Virus record (IMG/VR): IMGVR_UViG_3300029254_000143
Source of the DNA: a virus
Taxonomy: Duplodnaviria; Heunggongvirae; Uroviricota; Caudoviricetes
Strand: one strand, 5' to 3'
Length of the DNA: 4,767 nt
Position 1 is the stretch's first letter; each line of letters begins with the position of its first letter. Below, in pieces: positions 1 through 4,767 of the stretch. Both the position numbers and the translations under genes were made by a program. The notes under the pieces are model-generated. The model worked only from the letters and a program-made list of their open reading frames with translations, was not told where the DNA came from and did not search any database.

Positions 1-453
1 CCCTGTGGCACCCTGTGGACCTGTGTCCCCCTTCTCGCCCGCCGGTCCCCGGGCATTCTCTGCCCGTTTCTTCGCTTCCTCTGCACTCGCCGCCGACGCT
101 TCAGCACGCTTCAGGATTTCCGCTGCCACCGCTTCCAGCTCTGCAAGCGCTTTCGGGTAATACTGCGCCTCATCCTGTTCCATCAGAAATTTATTCAGCG
201 TTCCCGGCTCAGAATCCGCCTTCACCAGAATGTCACCCACATACGACGGGGCGTACCCTTCCGTGTTCAGCGTCACCCGGTACCACCCCGGCTCCACATC
301 AAAACTGTAACTGCCGGTTTCCCCCGGCTGCCCCTGCGCCACCGTGGTGACTATCACTGTCTCTGTGGTGCGTCGCGCTTTCAGCTCTATGGTGCATCCC
401 GGCACCGGCTTCCCGGTGCCGTCCTTCAGCACGCCCGATATTCTGACTGTCAT
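1..453 (-). CDS. stf: Side tail fibre protein (lambda Stf-like), N-terminal 151 codons; CDS continues beyond the window start
   Basis: Minus-strand translation from ATG (453-451) gives MTVRISGVLKDGTGKPVPGCTIELKARRTTETVIVTTVAQGQPGETGSYSFDVEPGWYRVTLNTEGYAPSYVGDILVKADSEPGTLNKFLMEQDEAQYYPKALAELEAVAAEILKRAEASAASAEEAKKRAENARGPAGEKGDTGPQGATG, open to position 1. The first ~90 residues resemble the N-terminus of lambda Stf as I recall it (MAVKISGVLKDGTGKPV...LKARR...). A GGGAG Shine-Dalgarno lies 6 nt upstream (464-460). An in-frame stop at 489-487 makes this ATG the first possible start. The ORF is absent from the six-frame track only because it has no stop inside the window. Confidence 0.85.
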   Translation of the reverse strand, partial: MTVRISGVLKDGTGKPVPGCTIELKARRTTETVIVTTVAQGQPGETGSYSFDVEPGWYRVTLNTEGYAPSYVGDILVKADSEPGTLNKFLMEQDEAQYYPKALAELEAVAAEILKRAEASAASAEEAKKRAENARGPAGEKGDTGPQGATG

Positions 454-466
454 AGATTTCTCCCAT

Positions 467-500
467 AAAAAAAACCGCAGTACCGGTTACCCGGTCTGCG
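467..500 (-). terminator. Rho-independent terminator between J and stf (minus-strand orientation)
   Basis: Read on the minus strand: a 10-bp GC-rich stem with a 1-nt bulge (plus 476-480/496-500 and 482-486/491-495) and a GUAA tetraloop, followed by G and U8 (plus A-run 467-474). RNA: CGCAGACCGGGUAACCGGUACUGCGGUUUUUUUU. The U-tract ends 3 nt before the stf Shine-Dalgarno. Confidence 0.75.
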
Positions 501-535
501 CTCAGAGGTATAAATTGTGACTGGCTGGTGTTAAA

Positions 536-560
536 GGGTGCCGTCAGTCAAAGGCACCCG
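536..560. other. Inverted repeat / hairpin GGGTGCC-N11-GGCACCC in the J-stf spacer
   Basis: Perfect 7-bp inverted repeat (536-542 and 554-560) with an 11-nt loop. On the minus-strand RNA it is followed only by UUUAAC, so it is at best a weak terminator. It may be an RNA stability element or a protein-binding palindrome. Confidence 0.4.
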
Positions 561-637
561 TGGATAATGTACGATGTCCGGCTTTTGTCGTTTTCCGGCA
601 ATCACGAACAGATGGATGAAACCTCACTATCCACCTG

Positions 638-3600
638 TCACGATGCGGTATCAAAATCGTCTGTATAGGATTTCAGGTAAAACAGAACCGGGTCCGGGAT
701 CCGAATTTGACTCGTATCATGAAGTATTGAACCACCCCTGTAAAAAAGCACACCTGCTTCATACCTGAATGTAATTTCAACCCGCGCATCACCCTGTCCG
801 GCAGGAATACCCCATGAGCCTGACGCACTTCCGCCAACATCAGAATATACCGGCTCATATCTGCTGGCGTTTTTGGAAATCTGGACCTCCCGCTCCCCGG
901 TTTTGACTTTGCCTGACCTGGCATGAACGACAACTTTGTCATTTATCTTCATGATGAATTCACCTCTGGAAAATGAATACGCCATAAGCATAAGCTTGCG
1001 ATCAAACGGCATGTTGTCTTTCAGCAAAATCATTTTCTGAAAAGTCAGCTGGTTCTGAGTCATTACGCCCTGCCCCATATCAACCGTGTATCCCTTGACG
1101 ATATCACCAATGATTCGGTCAGCGCTCATCGTTCCATTAATGGTGCAGTCTTCCGCAATCGTCACGTTATTCAGTACCCCGGCACTGGCCGTTATCGTCC
1201 CGCTGATATCGGCATTACGGGCCGTCAGCCTGCCGTCCGGCGTCAGGGAGAATGCCGGGGGATTGCCGCCGCTGGTAATGGTGGGGGCGGTAAGAACCTT
1301 TATCAGGGCCTCATTGATAAACGTCTGTCCCCCCTGCGTGACCAGTGCGGGTGTGGTATCACCATTCTCCGGATTAATGAATGCCACGCGGTCCGCTGCC
1401 AGCAGTATCTGGCTCTGCATCCCGTCAGGGGTGTTCTCAATACCGGCACCGATACCGGCAATATAGCGACGACCATCCTGCATCTGCTGTAGCTTCACCG
1501 CCCACATGCTGTTCAGGTCATTATTTGTGTCCGTCTGCACACGCTGGATTTGCTGTATGGTGGCGTTCTGGTCCTCCAGCGTTTTACTGACCGTCTGCGT
1601 GATTTCATTGCGGGTTTCTGTGATGGTGGTCTGCATTTCCGCCATCTCGTCCTTCAGCTGACTGTTGTCAATCTCTGCCCACAGCGCCTCTGCCAGATGC
1701 GTTTTTCCTATCTTTTCCCGGAAAAGTTCCAGATAACCCGCAGCATCATTGCTCGCCCGTCCACTGGCTTCCACAAAAGCAGATTTACCCACCAGGTTGA
1801 CGCTGCGCACATAAAACCAGAAATCCTTTCCGGGCTTAATGTGCGGACCGGAGACACTCCACTGACTGCCGGTCCCCAGATAACGGGCAGAGGTTTCCAC
1901 CTGTGCGGCGTCTGCAATTTTTGCCTCCGAAAACCAGAACTCAAACTGCACCGTCGGGTCATACACCGCAAGACGCGGGACTGCCGTTATCTGAAAATAC
2001 CCCGGCGTCAGTTCAACACCGGCAGGCGCTGCCGGTGCGTTAATCCGGAACGTGGTGGTGGCGGGTTCGCCCTGCTGGCCATAGCTGTTAATCGCCCTGA
2101 CCGTCAGGGTGTATTCCCCGGGAGGCAGGCCACTGAAACGGTGCTCCGTATCGGCAGTGATGGCGGTGGTCAGCAGGCGGCTGTTCTCACCGCTTCCACT
2201 GGTCAGGCGCAGACTGAAGCGCACGCCCTTCACCACCCTCGGCGTGTCCCATTTCGCCAGCGCCAGATACTGGCTGTCAGCTGCGCTCACCTCCACCGTC
2301 AGGTGCTGCACTGCCGGTGGGATGACGCTGTTCAGGGAGCCTGACTGCGGCTCAAAGCGGGCACCGTTATCCACGATGGCTTCTTTTTCCGGTACGTGCT
2401 GCACCGCCGTGATGGCAAAGGTGCCGTCCGTGTTTTCCCGGATGGCCACACAGCGGAACAGGCGACGGCGCAGTGACGGCAGGGAGAGTCCCCACACCCC
2501 GTATGTCTCCACACCATCAGGCAGGGTACTGACCTGTATCCGGTCCGGCGCGGGGTGTGCGGTGATGTCCACACTCACCGGCTTACCGCTGCCGTTAATC
2601 AGGTTCACCGTCGATGCACCTGTCCCCGGAAGTGTCACTTCACGGTCCAGCGTCAGGGTGCGGGTGGCAGCATCAATGGACAGGACACGTCCGCCGGTCA
2701 GGGTTCCGGCATAGTCGTTATCACAGATTTCAATGATGTCGCCGGGTGTGTGACGCAGCCCCTGTGACCCGAGTGTGAAATCCACCGTCTGCGTTTCCAG
2801 CAGTTCTGTCTTTATCACCCACAGTCCGGCACGGTGGGCCTGACCGCGGCTGGTACAGCCGAACGCGTCCATCTTCAGCAGGTTGCGTCCGTAGCGCAGT
2901 ATGGCTTCCGGGTCTTCCACCAGTTCCGTGGAGGTCTGCCAGCCGTTCTGCGGGTCGGTGTAATTCACCTCCACCGCCGTGTGCCGGTCCTTCAGGGCAC
3001 TGAAGCTGTAGCGGAACCCCACGCCGTTATCATCCACCACCACATCGCTGTTGGTGTACGGCCACACCACATCCGACGGGCGGTCCTGAACGAACGTCAG
3101 CGTCTGGCCGTTCCATACCGGCATACAGCGCATCGCCGAGCAGAAATCACTGAGAACGTCCCACGCCTTACGCTGTTGTGCCAGGTACGCATTAAAGGTC
3201 ATCCGCGGCTCTGTGCCCCCGAAACCATCCGGGACCGTCTGGTCGCAGTACTGCCCGATGGCATACAGCGCCCACTTGTCCACATCCGCCGCCCCCAGGC
3301 GTTTTCCCATGCCGTAGCGCGGGTGAGTCAGCATGTCCCACAGGCACCAGGCCGGGTTATTGCTGTATGCCGGTTTCAGACTGCCGTCCCAGATACCACT
3401 GTACGTGCGTTTTTCCGGGTCATAGTTTGACGGCACCTGGATGATGCGACCGCGGATATGGTAGTTCACCGTCATCTGCTGGCCACCGAACTGCTCCGCA
3501 TCCACCTGCAGCCCCACAATGGCCGTGTTCGGGTAGCACTGTTTCACATCGATGATTTCGGTGTATGACGACCAGAGCGTCTTATTCTGCAGCTGGTCCG

Positions 3601-4168
3601 TGGTGCTGTCCGCCGTCTCCCTGACCATCCGGATGTTAAAGGGCCGGGGCGGCAGATTATCCAGAATCACCGACGCCAGGAACTGCGAGGTGGTCTTGCC
3701 GTTAATGGTGACATCCTTTTCCGTCATCCATTTACCACCACGCTCAAGCTGAATCAGCAGGCGGACAGACGTCGGGTTACGGTCACCCTTTGAGGTGGTC
3801 TCCACCAGTGACTGCACCCCGAAGGTAACCCGCAGGCGGTCAATGTTCGCGGACGTAATGGTGCGCGTCACCGGCTTTGCCTTCGTCACTTCCACACCCA
3901 GTACAGTTTCAGCTCCGGAGGACTCAAAGCCTTCCGGTGGTGTCTGCTCCTGCTCCCCGGCACGCCAGACCGCTGTCACACCGTGTATCACGGGATTACC
4001 GTCCGTGTCCGTCAGCGGGGTTTTGTTCACCAGAATACTCTGCAGGCCTTTCACCGGACCTTCAATGGGTCCCTCACCAATCGCATCAATCACGCTCATC
4101 ATCTGCGTGGATTTGAGATTATCCTTCGCCTCACGAGGCGTGTGTGCCTTGCCGCCACCTTTACCCAC
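638..4168 (-). CDS. J: Host specificity / central tail fibre (tail tip) protein J, lambda gpJ family, 1176 aa
   Basis: Single long minus-strand ORF (track 638..4213). The translation is collinear with lambda gpJ as I recall it: N-terminus (V/M)GKGGGKAHTPREAKDNLKSTQ versus lambda MGKGSSKGHTPREAKDNLKST, and conserved blocks such as NKTLWSSYTEIIDVKQCYPNTA, WCLWDMLTHPRYGMGKRLGAADVDKWALY, RLFRCVAIRENTDGTFAITAVQHVPEKEAIVDNGA and APTITSGGNPPAFSLTPDGRLTARNADISG. Start placed at GTG 4168-4166, which aligns with lambda Met1 and is preceded by CAGGAGAGGGGGACAGA (GGAG and AGGGGG, 5-11 nt upstream). Stop TGA at 640-638. Confidence 0.95.
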   Translation of the reverse strand: MGKGGGKAHTPREAKDNLKSTQMMSVIDAIGEGPIEGPVKGLQSILVNKTPLTDTDGNPVIHGVTAVWRAGEQEQTPPEGFESSGAETVLGVEVTKAKPVTRTITSANIDRLRVTFGVQSLVETTSKGDRNPTSVRLLIQLERGGKWMTEKDVTINGKTTSQFLASVILDNLPPRPFNIRMVRETADSTTDQLQNKTLWSSYTEIIDVKQCYPNTAIVGLQVDAEQFGGQQMTVNYHIRGRIIQVPSNYDPEKRTYSGIWDGSLKPAYSNNPAWCLWDMLTHPRYGMGKRLGAADVDKWALYAIGQYCDQTVPDGFGGTEPRMTFNAYLAQQRKAWDVLSDFCSAMRCMPVWNGQTLTFVQDRPSDVVWPYTNSDVVVDDNGVGFRYSFSALKDRHTAVEVNYTDPQNGWQTSTELVEDPEAILRYGRNLLKMDAFGCTSRGQAHRAGLWVIKTELLETQTVDFTLGSQGLRHTPGDIIEICDNDYAGTLTGGRVLSIDAATRTLTLDREVTLPGTGASTVNLINGSGKPVSVDITAHPAPDRIQVSTLPDGVETYGVWGLSLPSLRRRLFRCVAIRENTDGTFAITAVQHVPEKEAIVDNGARFEPQSGSLNSVIPPAVQHLTVEVSAADSQYLALAKWDTPRVVKGVRFSLRLTSGSGENSRLLTTAITADTEHRFSGLPPGEYTLTVRAINSYGQQGEPATTTFRINAPAAPAGVELTPGYFQITAVPRLAVYDPTVQFEFWFSEAKIADAAQVETSARYLGTGSQWSVSGPHIKPGKDFWFYVRSVNLVGKSAFVEASGRASNDAAGYLELFREKIGKTHLAEALWAEIDNSQLKDEMAEMQTTITETRNEITQTVSKTLEDQNATIQQIQRVQTDTNNDLNSMWAVKLQQMQDGRRYIAGIGAGIENTPDGMQSQILLAADRVAFINPENGDTTPALVTQGGQTFINEALIKVLTAPTITSGGNPPAFSLTPDGRLTARNADISGTITASAGVLNNVTIAEDCTINGTMSADRIIGDIVKGYTVDMGQGVMTQNQLTFQKMILLKDNMPFDRKLMLMAYSFSRGEFIMKINDKVVVHARSGKVKTGEREVQISKNASRYEPVYSDVGGSASGSWGIPAGQGDARVEITFRYEAGVLFYRGGSILHDTSQIRIPDPVLFYLKSYTDDFDTAS

Positions 4169-4185
4169 TCTGTCCCCCTCTCCTG
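4169..4185 (-). promoter_or_regulatory. Ribosome-binding region of J
   Basis: Minus-strand sequence CAGGAGAGGGGGACAGA immediately 5' of the GTG start. The purine-rich GGAG / AGGGGG is at appropriate spacing. Confidence 0.6.
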
Positions 4186-4211
4186 TCTGATGTCTGAATC
4201 TGTTTATGCCC

Positions 4212-4243
4212 AAAAAACAACAGGCACCCCGGAGAATGCCTGT
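4212..4243 (-). terminator. Putative weak intrinsic terminator on the minus strand, just downstream of the small ORF and upstream of the J RBS
   Basis: 7-bp stem (plus 4220-4226 / 4237-4243; ACAGGCA / TGCCTGT) with a 10-nt loop. On the minus-strand RNA it is followed by UGUUUUUUGGG (plus A-run 4212-4217). The stem is shorter and less GC-rich than the other two terminators, so the call is tentative. Confidence 0.45.
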
Positions 4244-4244
4244 A

Positions 4245-4340
4245 TCATGACTGAATAAAAATTCTGAATATCTTCACATTTTCACAAACTGACTGTGGCG
4301 CGTATAATTTCGCTGCGTTAGTGTTTTTTTGCCGTGACAT
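4245..4340 (-). CDS. Candidate small ORF, 31 aa (MSRQKNTNAAKLYAPQSVCENVKIFRIFIQS), hypothetical protein
   Basis: Minus-strand ATG at 4340-4338 preceded by a canonical AAGGAG Shine-Dalgarno (4356-4351) with a 10-nt spacer. 31 sense codons, then TGA (4247-4245), followed directly by the hairpin and U-run at 4243-4212. It lies in AT-rich DNA, where open frames of this length are less likely by chance. I recognise no family and the peptide is not hydrophobic. It is too short for the supplied ORF track. It could be an artefact of the antisense RNA gene on the opposite strand. Confidence 0.3.
   Translation of the reverse strand: MSRQKNTNAAKLYAPQSVCENVKIFRIFIQS
4273..4308 (+). promoter_or_regulatory. 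Sigma70-type promoter on the plus strand (antisense to the tail genes): -35 TTCACA (4281-4286), 16-bp spacer, -10 TATAAT (4303-4308)
   Basis: Perfect consensus -10 hexamer TATAAT. The -35 matches TTGACA at 5 of 6 positions with a 16-bp spacer. A tandem TTCACA copy sits at 4273-4278 and an A/T-rich UP-like tract at 4254-4272. Predicted start is around 4315. A strong plus-strand terminator lies ~100 nt downstream. Confidence 0.5.
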
Positions 4341-4413
4341 AAAAAAACAACTCCTTAACACTAATCTTCATTTGTCTGTCCCCGCAGCTCCGCGATCACT
4401 GCGGGATTTTTTT
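4315..4413 (+). ncRNA. Candidate ~100-nt small RNA (antisense to the RBS and start of the 31-codon ORF), from the promoter to the intrinsic terminator
   Basis: Bounded by the TATAAT promoter and the terminator at 4381-4413. No plausible plus-strand ORF or RBS. Predicted structure: a 5' stem (4318-4325 UUAGUGUU pairing with 4357-4364 AACACUAA, extended by U7 4324-4330 pairing with A7 4341-4347), a single-stranded U/AU-rich linker AUCUUCAUUUGUCUGUC (4364-4380), and a terminator hairpin with U7. Contains a CUCCUU anti-Shine-Dalgarno-like motif (4351-4356). Confidence 0.45.
4381..4413 (+). terminator. Rho-independent terminator, plus-strand orientation
   Basis: Perfect 7-bp stem CCCGCAG (4381-4387) / CTGCGGG (4399-4405) with 6 of 7 GC pairs and an 11-nt loop, then A and T7 (4407-4413). 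On the minus strand the hairpin is preceded by the A-run and not followed by U, so it is unidirectional for plus-strand transcripts. It ends 5 nt before the stop codon of gene I. Confidence 0.8.
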
Positions 4414-4418
4414 ATGTT

Positions 4419-4767
4419 TTATCCCTGTCGACCAATAACCACCACCTTTCCGCCCCCGCCTTCATCACGGGTGCTGATGTCCTGAGAGATACGTCGTGAA
4501 CCAACCAGCATTTCCCCGTAAGACACCGGCATCGGGTTACCCTGGGCAATCATGTTGTCCAGCGAGGAAAAGTACGTGTTCTGTTTACCGTTATCCGTTG
4601 CCCGGTAATCCGGTGTCTTTGCCTTCGGGGCAAGCATCTGCGCCACACCACCCAGAATCATGCTGGCACCCAGTGAAAACAGCATCGTGGTGGCAGAAAA
4701 ACCACCGGCTGCCAGGGCTGAACCCCATAACGCCATTGATGCCCCGGCCGTGAAGAAAGACCCCACA
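4419..4767 (-). CDS. I: Tail assembly protein I (lambda gpI-like), C-terminal ~115 codons; 5' end lies beyond the window
   Basis: Minus-strand translation ...GSFFTAGASMALWGSALAAGGFSATTMLFSLGASMILGGVAQMLAPKAKTPDYRATDNGKQNTYFSSLDNMIAQGNPMPVSYGEMLVGSRRISQDISTRDEGGGGKVVVIGRQG, stop TAA at 4421-4419. This closely resembles the C-terminal part of lambda gpI as I recall it (...GSFFTAGA...LFSLGASMVLGGVAQMLAPKA...TDNGKQNTYFSSLDNMVAQGN...YGEM.VGSR..SQ.IST.DEG.GG.VVVIGR). The Met at 4766 is internal and the frame is open to the window edge. Confidence 0.85.
   Translation of the reverse strand, partial: VGSFFTAGASMALWGSALAAGGFSATTMLFSLGASMILGGVAQMLAPKAKTPDYRATDNGKQNTYFSSLDNMIAQGNPMPVSYGEMLVGSRRISQDISTRDEGGGGKVVVIGRQG

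What the first reader, a model, noticed from the sequence alone, without database searches (positions are those of the whole stretch)
4273..4413. Candidate ~100-nt antisense small RNA with near-consensus promoter and strong terminator
A perfect TATAAT -10 with a 5/6 -35 at 16-bp spacing and an upstream A/T tract points away from the phage late genes. About 100 nt downstream is a textbook intrinsic terminator that is functional only on the plus strand. The intervening RNA has no coding potential and folds into a 5' stem, a U-rich single-stranded linker and a terminator hairpin with poly-U 3' end, which is a typical Hfq-dependent sRNA architecture. Its 5' domain is perfectly complementary to the SD and first 8 codons of the opposite-strand small ORF (cis-antisense). 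Its CUCCUU motif could also pair with SD sequences in trans.
Basis: partly seen in the sequence, partly recalled or inferred. Interest (0 to 1): 0.7.

Follow-up and report, generated by a model that had tools for sequence, protein, structure and literature searches.

The report
Known prophage small RNA PasB, variant copy

Summary
A TTCACA-16-TATAAT promoter (4281-4308) and an intrinsic terminator (stem 4381-4405, U7 4407-4413) sit on the + strand. They lie in the 250-nt gap between tail genes I and J, which are on the - strand.

The RNA is a known one. The published Northern probe for PasB of EPEC E2348/69 matches window 4386-4408 exactly. The last 50 nt are identical to PasB, overall identity is 92%, and the I-J position is the same. 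PasB was validated by Northern blot, loss in an hfq mutant and RIL-seq. The EHEC RNAs EcOnc22/23/24 (2014) lie in the same gap and align with it. Rfam has no family for it and RefSeq does not annotate it.

Across relatives, the -10 box, an upstream TCTGA-N6-TCACA box and the terminator are conserved.

Using published PasB partners, I place the seed at CUCCUUCACAUUGAUCUUCA. The window carries three substitutions there (4351-4370), so its targets probably differ.

Verdict: already known, low interest. By-products are the PasB/EcOnc22-24 link, tandem arrays of up to four cassettes, and a sodC fusion.

The parts
4254..4281 (+). Conserved upstream promoter module: an A/T tract plus the palindromic box TCTGA-N6-TCACA (4263-4278). 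The box resembles a CRP/FNR-type site and is centred 32.5 bp upstream of the -10 box.
   Evidence: This is the most conserved block across 44 unique promoter segments. The invariant TTCACA (4273-4278) always lies 24 nt upstream of the -10 box (25 nt in one unit). It matches the CRP core at 9 of 10 positions. Its function is inferred only.
4281..4286 (+).
   Evidence: It is conserved only in the window/E2348 sub-family; other sub-families have TTCTGT, TCCGGC or TCTGCA at this position.
4303..4308 (+). The -10 hexamer TATAAT.
   Evidence: Among 53 family units the hexamer is TATAAT in 17, AATAAT in 16, CATAAT in 7, TATCAT in 5 and GATAAT in 2.
4315..4413 (+). PasB-family small RNA. The primary transcript predicted from the -10 box is 99 nt. 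The published PasB 5' end corresponds to window 4330, which would give 84 nt.
   Evidence: The Northern probe AATCCCGCAGTGATCGCGGAGCT is the exact reverse complement of 4386-4408. Alignment to NC_011601 1466261-1466343 confirms the match. Identity is 92%, and the 3' 50 nt are identical.
4351..4370 (+). Inferred seed region, CUCCUUAACACUAAUCUUCA. It differs at three positions from the PasB seed CUCCUUCACAUUGAUCUUCA.
   Evidence: Sliding-window duplex scans of E2348/69 PasB against 6 and then 10 published RIL-seq partners. The region is predicted mostly unpaired.
4381..4413 (+). Intrinsic terminator and likely Hfq-binding 3' module: a 7-bp stem, an 11-nt loop, then A and U7.
   Evidence: The stem is invariant in 26 of 26 family members.
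4210..4243 (-). Late-strand intrinsic terminator hairpin plus U run, just upstream of the J ribosome-binding site. It is part of the conserved spacer but not of the small RNA.
   Evidence: It folds at -16.0 kcal/mol on the - strand and -9.5 on the + strand. G-U wobble pairs work only on the - strand RNA, and one sub-family shows a compensatory C-G to T-A change.
4419..4766 (-). 3' part of the tail assembly protein I gene, which forms the upstream boundary of the slot in late-operon direction.
638..4168 (-). Tail tip / host specificity protein J gene, with a GTG start at 4168. It forms the downstream boundary of the slot.

Best explanation
The locus is a PasB-family small RNA gene. It is a self-contained 'moron' cassette, meaning extra DNA with its own promoter and terminator, inserted in the opposite orientation between tail genes I and J of a lambda-like E. 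coli prophage.

In a lysogen the late operon is silent. Host RNA polymerase starts at the TATAAT promoter (start predicted near 4315) and stops at the U7 terminator (4413). The resulting RNA of about 84-99 nt is bound and stabilised by Hfq through its U-rich stretch, terminator hairpin and poly-U tail. It then acts in trans, base-pairing through a single-stranded seed (window 4351-4370) with host and virulence mRNAs.

What is shown, but only in the E2348/69 homologue: expression, size, Hfq dependence and the list of RNA partners. What I infer here: the promoter and start site, and the seed position. The seed gives a 16-bp perfect duplex over the napF ribosome-binding site. I also infer that the three seed substitutions in this window's copy give it a different target set from published PasB.
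For: Identity with PasB:
- The Northern probe matches exactly, the I-J position is the same, identity is 92% and the 3' 50 nt are identical.
- PasB was confirmed by Northern blot, is Hfq-dependent, and has 37 RIL-seq interactions in which it is almost always RNA2.
- Its partners include bfpB, bfpI, ler, perB, ftsZ, galE, napF, map, fabR, hflX, yhhX and caiF.

Same family in EHEC:
- EcOnc22/23/24 are Hfq-CRAC peaks in the I-J gaps of Sakai prophages Sp15, Sp14 and Sp11. Their Northern size is about 85 nt and they are destabilised without Hfq.

Conservation:
- The -10 box, the upstream box and the terminator are conserved across diverged cassettes.

Seed:
- 14-nt windows at nt 31-46 (6 partners) and nt 36-51 (10 independent partners) give mean z of about -2.4 to -2.6, while the 5' 30 nt give about 0.
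- The 20-nt seed beats every one of roughly 40 local control windows in 7 of 10 partners.
- The signal falls to z -0.8 with the window's seed and to 0.15 with the Sakai seed.
Against: - No expression data exist for this particular copy or its host.
- The published 5' end (equivalent to 4330) lies 15 nt downstream of the start predicted from the promoter. Either the RNA is processed or one of the two estimates is off.
- The seed inference rests on thermodynamic prediction over 16 partners. Three of the ten independent partners (hflX, tolC, yrdD-smg) show no good site.
- Zhu et al. (bioRxiv 10.64898/2026.05.13.724894) propose a seed slightly further 3', just upstream of the terminator. It overlaps mine only at AUCUUCA.
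- No covariation supports any structure, because the terminator stem is invariant.
Confidence: 0.88

Rival explanations
1. It is a cis-antisense regulator. The RNA would act mainly on the opposite strand, either on the small ORF 4245-4361 or on the I-J segment of the late polycistronic mRNA. It could work by pairing, RNase III cleavage or transcriptional interference.
For: The RNA is fully complementary to the late transcript between I and J by construction. Its promoter fires head-on against the late operon. Some relatives have a 39-41 aa late-strand ORF, MKINVKELF...NVKIFRNFIPS, preceded by a GGGGA motif.
Against: - The late-strand ORF is intact in only 9 of 43 unique single-cassette spacers. 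It is frameshifted in the window, stopped in E2348/69, and lacks its ATG in about half of the variants.
- The ORF product is not hydrophobic, unlike type I toxins.
- Changes in its 'C-terminal' part are non-synonymous and fall in the spacer of the promoter palindrome, which fits a DNA-site constraint.
- The RNA lies about 150 nt from the J start, so it cannot mask it.
- The homologue has dozens of trans partners on Hfq.
- A secondary cis effect during lytic growth is not excluded.
Confidence: 0.07
2. This particular copy is an inactive remnant or merely a spacer with terminators. The hairpins would only insulate the tail genes, and the promoter-like hexamers would not drive a stable RNA here.
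For: Prophage regions decay, and the exact sequence variant occurs in only 1 of 5426 genomes. Terminator-like hairpins are frequent in the window: 11 found against 4 expected.
Against: All functional modules are intact. The -10 box is a perfect TATAAT, the upstream box is identical to the family consensus, and the 3' 50 nt match the expressed PasB exactly. Substitutions are concentrated in the seed and 5' part, not in the promoter or terminator.
Confidence: 0.04
3. The conservation reflects a small late-strand protein gene rather than an RNA gene.
For: A recurrent ORF runs from ATGAAGATTAA (the reverse complement of the conserved TTAATCTTCAT) to a fixed TGA in two diverged sub-families.
Against: The frame is broken in most copies by length changes in the poly-T run, by nonsense codons or by start loss. 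The conserved blocks coincide with promoter and terminator elements on the + strand. The RNA on the + strand has been detected experimentally in two pathotypes.
Confidence: 0.01

Closest known systems
PasB (E2348CN_0006), a pathogenicity-associated sRNA of EPEC E2348/69 prophage PP6. Sources: Pearl Mizrahi et al. 2021, PMC8550237; Zhu, Shabalina and Storz 2026 preprint, 10.64898/2026.05.13.724894.
   Same: - Same slot between tail genes I and J, and same orientation.
- Same upstream box, -10 box and terminator.
- The Northern probe matches 23 of 23 nt.
- The 3' 50 nt are identical and overall identity is 92%.
   Different: - There are 8 differences in the 5' half, including three inside the seed I infer: C to A at PasB position 27, U to C at 31, and G to A at 33.
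- Predicted pairing to published PasB partners is weakened by 2 to 6.5 kcal/mol.
- This copy also keeps a good -35 box and a possible 5' stem.
EcOnc22, EcOnc23 and EcOnc24, orphan Hfq-bound sRNAs of EHEC O157:H7 Sakai prophages Sp15 (Stx1 phage), Sp14 and Sp11. Source: Tree et al. 2014, PMC4104026, Table S2.
   Same: - They lie in the I-J gap on the strand opposite the late genes.
- Northern size is about 85 nt and they are destabilised in an hfq mutant.
- They share the upstream box, xATAAT -10 box, GC(G/A)TTA start region (GCATTA in the Sakai copies), AACTCC, TTAATCTTCA and the CCCGCAG...CTGCGGGA-U7 terminator.
   Different: - The middle part and seed have diverged: ACUCCAUAACGUUAAUCUUC.
- There is no recognisable -35 box.
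- Their targets are unknown.
- Table S6 of the 2021 PasB paper lists no EHEC homologue for PasB, and I found no EcOnc22-24 link in the parts of the 2026 preprint I read.
AgvB / AsxR anti-sRNA family (Rfam RF02702 and RF02703).
   Same: They are prophage-encoded, Hfq-binding, short RNAs in a moron slot, forming a family with a conserved 3' module and a variable target-recognition part.
   Different: - They sit in a different slot, downstream of PR' and Q.
- Their sequence is unrelated: there is no Rfam hit in the window or in 9 related loci, while AgvB itself is found in the control loci.
- They act as sponges of core sRNAs, whereas PasB partners are mostly coding sequences and 5' UTRs.

Membership tests
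PasB / EcOnc22-24 small RNA family (I-J spacer cassette) | Sequence homology to the experimentally defined PasB RNA | tested here: met
   The probe matches exactly at 4386-4408. Identity is 92% over 99/98 nt, and 4364-4413 is identical.
PasB / EcOnc22-24 small RNA family (I-J spacer cassette) | Position between tail assembly gene I and tail tip gene J, on the strand opposite the late operon | tested here: met
   All 78 surveyed I-J junctions hold at least the 3' half of such a cassette.
PasB / EcOnc22-24 small RNA family (I-J spacer cassette) | Own promoter, with a -10 box at a fixed distance from the conserved upstream box, and an own intrinsic terminator with a U tract | tested here: met
PasB / EcOnc22-24 small RNA family (I-J spacer cassette) | A stable transcript of about 83-85 nt whose abundance depends on Hfq | not testable with these tools
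   This is shown only for the homologues (PMC8550237 Fig. 3A and Table S2; PMC4104026 Table S2).
Hfq-dependent trans-acting sRNA (class) | 3' Hfq module: a U-rich stretch, a terminator hairpin and at least 6 U | tested here: met
   UCUUCAUUUGUCUGU, then the hairpin, then U7.
Hfq-dependent trans-acting sRNA (class) | An accessible seed complementary to partner mRNAs | tested here: inconclusive
   This is met by prediction for E2348/69 PasB: 7 of 10 independent partners, with specificity controls. For the window's altered seed no partner set exists. The seed is predicted mostly unpaired.
Cis-antisense RNA / type I toxin-antitoxin pair | A conserved small ORF, usually hydrophobic, on the opposite strand whose ribosome-binding site is covered by the RNA | tested here: not met
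   The ORF is intact in 9 of 43 unique spacers and broken in the window and in E2348/69. Its product is not hydrophobic.
AgvB/AsxR anti-sRNAs (RF02702/RF02703) | Match to the Rfam covariance model, and location downstream of PR' | tested here: not met
   There is no hit at E<=1 in the window or at E<=0.1 in 9 related loci. The models do find AgvB in the Sakai control loci.
CRP class II-dependent promoter | A TGTGA-N6-TCACA site centred at -41.5 from the transcription start | tested here: inconclusive
   The core matches 9 of 10 positions (4263-4278) and is strongly conserved. However, the centre is at about -44.5 from the predicted start, off the canonical helical face. One such match per window is not rare (0.24 expected).

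The most novel reading that the evidence does not exclude
The I-J gap of lambda-like prophages may be a dedicated, recombining small-RNA slot. PasB, EcOnc22-24 and many unnamed variants would form one family with three shared properties:
- a fixed regulatory module: a CRP/FNR-like palindrome exactly 24 nt upstream of the -10 box, which may tie expression to carbon or oxygen status;
- a fixed Hfq-binding terminator;
- a rapidly diversifying seed, so that each prophage brings a different target set.

The family would also expand into tandem arrays of 2 to 4 different cassettes, and would be captured as the 3' UTR of a prophage sodC gene.

The family relationship, the arrays and the sodC fusion are observed here. 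Control by a transcription factor and the functional divergence of seeds are inferred.
Probability: 0.4. Interest if true: 0.45.

Novelty: already known. Interest (0 to 1): 0.22.

Why it matters
For the scan, this is a true positive that rediscovers a published RNA. PasB was described in 2021 and surveyed in 2026, and its EHEC relatives were seen in 2014. It adds no new kind of element.

It still has practical value, because neither Rfam nor RefSeq annotates the family. The element therefore looks 'novel' in about 1000 to 1700 complete E. coli genomes.

Three by-products could help people who work on these RNAs:
- PasB and EcOnc22-24 are the same family.
- The published partners of PasB point to a seed at CUCCUUCACAUUGAUCUUCA, including a 16-bp duplex over the napF ribosome-binding site.
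- Natural variants such as this window differ precisely in that seed, so copies should not be assumed to be functionally equivalent.

Tried and rejected
- Rfam (4227 families) was run on the window at E<=1 and on nine related loci at E<=0.1. Nothing relevant was found. AgvB/AsxR membership was rejected.
- RNAalifold on 26 family members found only the invariant terminator stem. There was no consensus 5' structure and no covariation. Per-sequence folds confirm that the 5' stem is specific to this sub-family.
- A degenerate pattern scan of 185,579 species genomes gave mostly chance hits. The real ones were E. albertii plus small contigs that look like E. coli contamination in Streptomyces, Parendozoicomonas and Clostridiales assemblies. 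This agrees with the published restriction to Escherichia and Shigella.
- Whole-length RNAduplex of PasB against its partners gave meaningless 60-nt duplexes. I replaced it with 14-nt windows against 30-nt tiles, using shuffled and local genomic controls.
- A sigma-54 reading of the conserved GTGGC upstream of the -10 box was rejected because there is no TTGC element.
- A LexA-box reading of CTG...CAC was rejected because the spacing is wrong.
- An alternative -10 box for a start at 4330 was looked for and none was found.
- The late-strand ORF as a gene or type I toxin was rejected.
- CRP class II activation was kept only as a hypothesis, because the site is 3 bp too far from the -10 box.

Full report
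**What the window is.** The 4767 bases are the tail region of a lambda-like E. coli prophage, read against the direction of the late genes. On the - strand lie the 3' part of tail assembly gene I (stop at 4419), the tail tip/host specificity gene J (GTG start at 4168, stop at 638) and the start of a tail fibre gene (ATG at 452). The best matches are E. coli chromosomes at 97.9% identity, annotated in exactly this way. Between I and J there is a 250-nt non-coding gap (4169-4418). By my recollection of the lambda genome, not checked here, lambda itself has no such gap.

**Checking the observation.**
- The promoter scan finds TTCACA (4281-4286), 16 nt, then TATAAT (4303-4308) on the + strand, scoring 11 of 12. 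A match this good at this spacing is expected 0.01 times per window.
- The terminator is CCCGCAG/CUGCGGG (4381-4387 with 4399-4405), followed by A and seven U (4407-4413). It folds at -12.6 kcal/mol with z -2.3. Only the + strand has the U run.
- The minimum-energy fold of 4315-4413 has the 5' stem, an unpaired linker and the terminator. The overall z-score is only -1.76.

**Identification.** A literature search led to the Pas small RNAs of enteropathogenic E. coli.
- Table S6 of Pearl Mizrahi et al. 2021 (PMC8550237) gives PasB as NC_011601.1, minus strand, 1466343-1466261, 83 nt, prophage PP6, with Northern probe AATCCCGCAGTGATCGCGGAGCT. The reverse complement of that probe is window 4386-4408 exactly.
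- I fetched the E2348/69 locus. PasB lies between the tail assembly gene and gpJ, opposite to both. The spacers align throughout.
- From the predicted start the two RNAs are 92% identical, and the last 50 nt (4364-4413) are identical.
- The published 3' end is the last U of the run, equivalent to 4413. The published 5' end corresponds to 4330, which is 15 nt downstream of the start predicted from the TATAAT box. That 5' end was set 'according to RNA coverage' and an approximate Northern size.

**What is known about PasB.**
- Its Northern band has the expected size.
- Its abundance falls in an hfq mutant, with log2 change -6.8 in DMEM and -2.4 in static overnight LB.
- It is higher in the overnight LB condition.
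- It has 37 RIL-seq interactions and is RNA2 in 99-100% of chimeras.
- A 2026 preprint (10.64898/2026.05.13.724894) found 1158 PasB hits, restricted to Escherichia and Shigella and embedded in a structural-gene operon. It proposed a seed just upstream of the terminator.
- Rfam has no model for it, and RefSeq annotates nothing under the match.

**An older sighting.** Tree et al. 2014 (PMC4104026, Table S2) list EcOnc22, EcOnc23 and EcOnc24 in Sakai prophages Sp15, Sp14 and Sp11. They are on the + strand, with a Northern size of about 85 nt, and are 'destabilised' in an hfq mutant.
- All three peaks fall in the I-J gaps of those prophages, opposite to the late genes.
- The paper's coordinates are offset by about +137 to +146 from NC_002695.2. 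I calibrated this on AgvB1 using the Rfam model. With the offset, the EcOnc22 peak lies inside the predicted 91-nt RNA.
- The three Sakai cassettes align with the window and with PasB across the upstream box, -10 box, start region, AACTCC, TTAATCTTCA and terminator.
- Table S6 of the 2021 PasB paper lists no EHEC homologue, and a 2021 review lists the EcOnc22-24 targets as unknown.

**Comparative survey.** I fetched 80 viral contigs through the N-terminus of J, which does not depend on what the spacer contains. In the 78 contigs with both genes, the gap is never empty.
- Most hold one cassette, and there are 43 unique single-cassette spacers.
- Four loci hold two cassettes, one holds three, and four hold four different cassettes in tandem.
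- The four-cassette array occurs in 67 complete E. coli genomes, mostly non-O157 Shiga-toxin strains.
- In eleven loci a Cu/Zn superoxide dismutase gene (sodC) on the PasB strand replaces the promoter. The 3' two-thirds of a PasB-like unit then form its 3' end.

**What is conserved across the family.**
- The best conserved block is upstream of the promoter: ATAAAA, then TTCTGA, four variable bases plus T, then TTCACATTT (window 4255-4281).
It lies a constant 24 nt upstream of the -10 box.
- The -10 box is kept as TATAAT (17 units), AATAAT (16), CATAAT (7), TATCAT (5) or GATAAT (2) among 53 units.

**The upstream box.** It reads TCTGA-N6-TCACA, a 9-of-10 match to the CRP core. Its centre is about -44.5 from the predicted start rather than -41.5, and one such match per window is not rare. 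I keep CRP/FNR-type control as a hypothesis only. It would fit the higher PasB level in glucose-free, oxygen-limited overnight culture.

**Structure.** RNAalifold on 26 members finds only the terminator stem, which is invariant and so carries no covariation. The 5' stem of the window is not shared; E2348/69 PasB folds differently. The stretch AAUCUUCAUUU is predicted unpaired in almost all members.

**The opposite-strand ORF.**
- That frame is intact in only 9 of 43 unique spacers.
- It is frameshifted in the window, stopped by a nonsense codon in E2348/69, and lacks its ATG wherever TTCAT is TTCGT or TTTGT.
- Its conserved 'C-terminus' is the promoter box. Changes there fall in the palindrome spacer and are non-synonymous.
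- I therefore reject a coding gene and a type I toxin-antitoxin reading.

**How it works: the seed.** I took the partner fragments from Table S3 of the 2021 paper.
- Set 1 was six partners from the activating condition (bfpB, bfpI, perB, ftsZ, galE, ler). Sliding 14-nt windows of PasB gave the strongest and most specific predicted duplexes at nt 31-46, with mean z -2.4 against shuffled targets. They were also about 5 kcal/mol better than 150 control windows from the bfp operon.
- Set 2 was an independent test with ten partners from the non-activating condition (E2348C_2648, napF 5'UTR, hflX, map, fabR, yhhX, caiF, rplX, tolC 5'UTR, yrdD-smg). Controls were same-strand neighbouring windows. The signal again peaks at nt 36-51 (mean z -2.5 to -2.6; 6-7 of 10 partners in the top 5%), and the first 30 nt give z of about 0.
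- The 20-nt seed CUCCUUCACAUUGAUCUUCA beats all of roughly 40 local controls in 7 of 10 partners. For napF it forms a 16-bp perfect duplex covering the Shine-Dalgarno sequence and start codon (-25.7 kcal/mol).
- As a specificity control, the window's version of the seed (CUCCUUAACACUAAUCUUCA, 4351-4370) drops to mean z -0.8 (2 of 10). The Sakai version drops to 0.15 (0 of 10).
The window's copy differs at three seed positions, including the PasB/PasB-2 polymorphism at position 27 noted in the preprint. It probably regulates other targets.
- These are predictions, not measurements.

**A neighbouring element.** On the late (-) strand, just upstream of the J ribosome-binding site, there is a conserved terminator: ACAGGCAUUCUCCGGGGUGCCUGU followed by UGUUUUUU (4243-4210).
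- It folds at -16.0 kcal/mol on the - strand against -9.5 on the + strand.
- In the window and in L003 the stem is kept by G-U pairs that exist only in the - strand RNA. One sub-family has a compensatory C-G to T-A change.
- It is therefore selected as a late-strand RNA hairpin. It presumably stops stray transcription into J in the lysogen and is read through by Q-modified polymerase during lytic growth. That role is my inference.

**Verdict.** The element is an already described small RNA (PasB; EcOnc22-24 family). Novelty is 'already known' and interest is low. The points that go beyond the papers are secondary: the family link, the seed position and its variation, the fixed upstream box, the arrays and the sodC fusion.

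Noticed in passing
window 4210-4243 (- strand): A conserved late-strand intrinsic terminator lies immediately upstream of the J ribosome-binding site. Its stem is maintained by G-U pairs that work only in the - strand RNA (-16.0 against -9.5 kcal/mol), and one sub-family has a compensatory C-G to T-A change.
   Followed up: partly
L025, L031, L039, L043 (four cassettes); L024 (three); L020, L022, L034, L049 (two). All lie in the spacer upstream of J, about locus positions 560-1500.: Tandem arrays of 2 to 4 different PasB-like cassettes sit between I and J. Each cassette has its own upstream box, -10 box and terminator. Two terminator types occur: CCCGCAG..CTGCGGGA and CTCCCGT..ACGGGAG. The four-cassette array is present in 67 complete E. 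coli genomes, mostly non-O157 STEC.
   Followed up: partly
L006, L008, L014, L019, L026, L045, L048, L053, L062, L068, L072 (spacer of about 860-915 nt upstream of J): A prophage Cu/Zn superoxide dismutase gene (sodC) on the PasB strand replaces the PasB promoter. Homology resumes just after the -10 box, so a PasB-like body and terminator form the sodC 3' end. This could yield a small RNA derived from a 3' UTR.
   Followed up: no
L108 1137-1227, L109 and L110 (Sakai Sp15, Sp14, Sp11): EcOnc22/23/24 of Tree et al. 2014 are PasB-family cassettes in the I-J gap. The paper's coordinates are shifted by about +137 to +146 relative to NC_002695.2.
   Followed up: yes
window 4185-4200, and the aligned region in L015, L031 and L059: A 7-nt unit, TGTCTGA, is repeated in tandem in the J leader between the late-strand terminator and the J Shine-Dalgarno sequence. 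Copy number varies from 2 in the window to 3-5 in relatives.
   Followed up: no
window 453-637: The J-to-tail-fibre gap holds two further late-strand terminator-like hairpins: 560-537, and 488-473 followed by eight T directly before the tail fibre ribosome-binding site. No PasB-like cassette is present there.
   Followed up: no
window 4263-4278 and all related cassettes: The palindromic box TCTGA-N6-TCACA (CRP/FNR-like) lies at an invariant 24 nt from the -10 box. It is better conserved than the RNA body.
   Followed up: partly
L091, L097, L103 (genome-contig hits): Short contigs filed under Parendozoicomonas haliclonae, Streptomyces flavalbus and a Clostridiales MAG carry PasB-like E. coli prophage sequence (74-91% identity). 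They are most likely assembly or binning contamination.
   Followed up: no
L118 about 1662-1678 (E2348/69 napF ribosome-binding site): E2348/69 PasB nt 38-55 forms a 16-bp perfect duplex with the napF Shine-Dalgarno and start codon region (GAAGGUCAAUGUGAAGA). This makes napF the clearest candidate direct target.
   Followed up: partly
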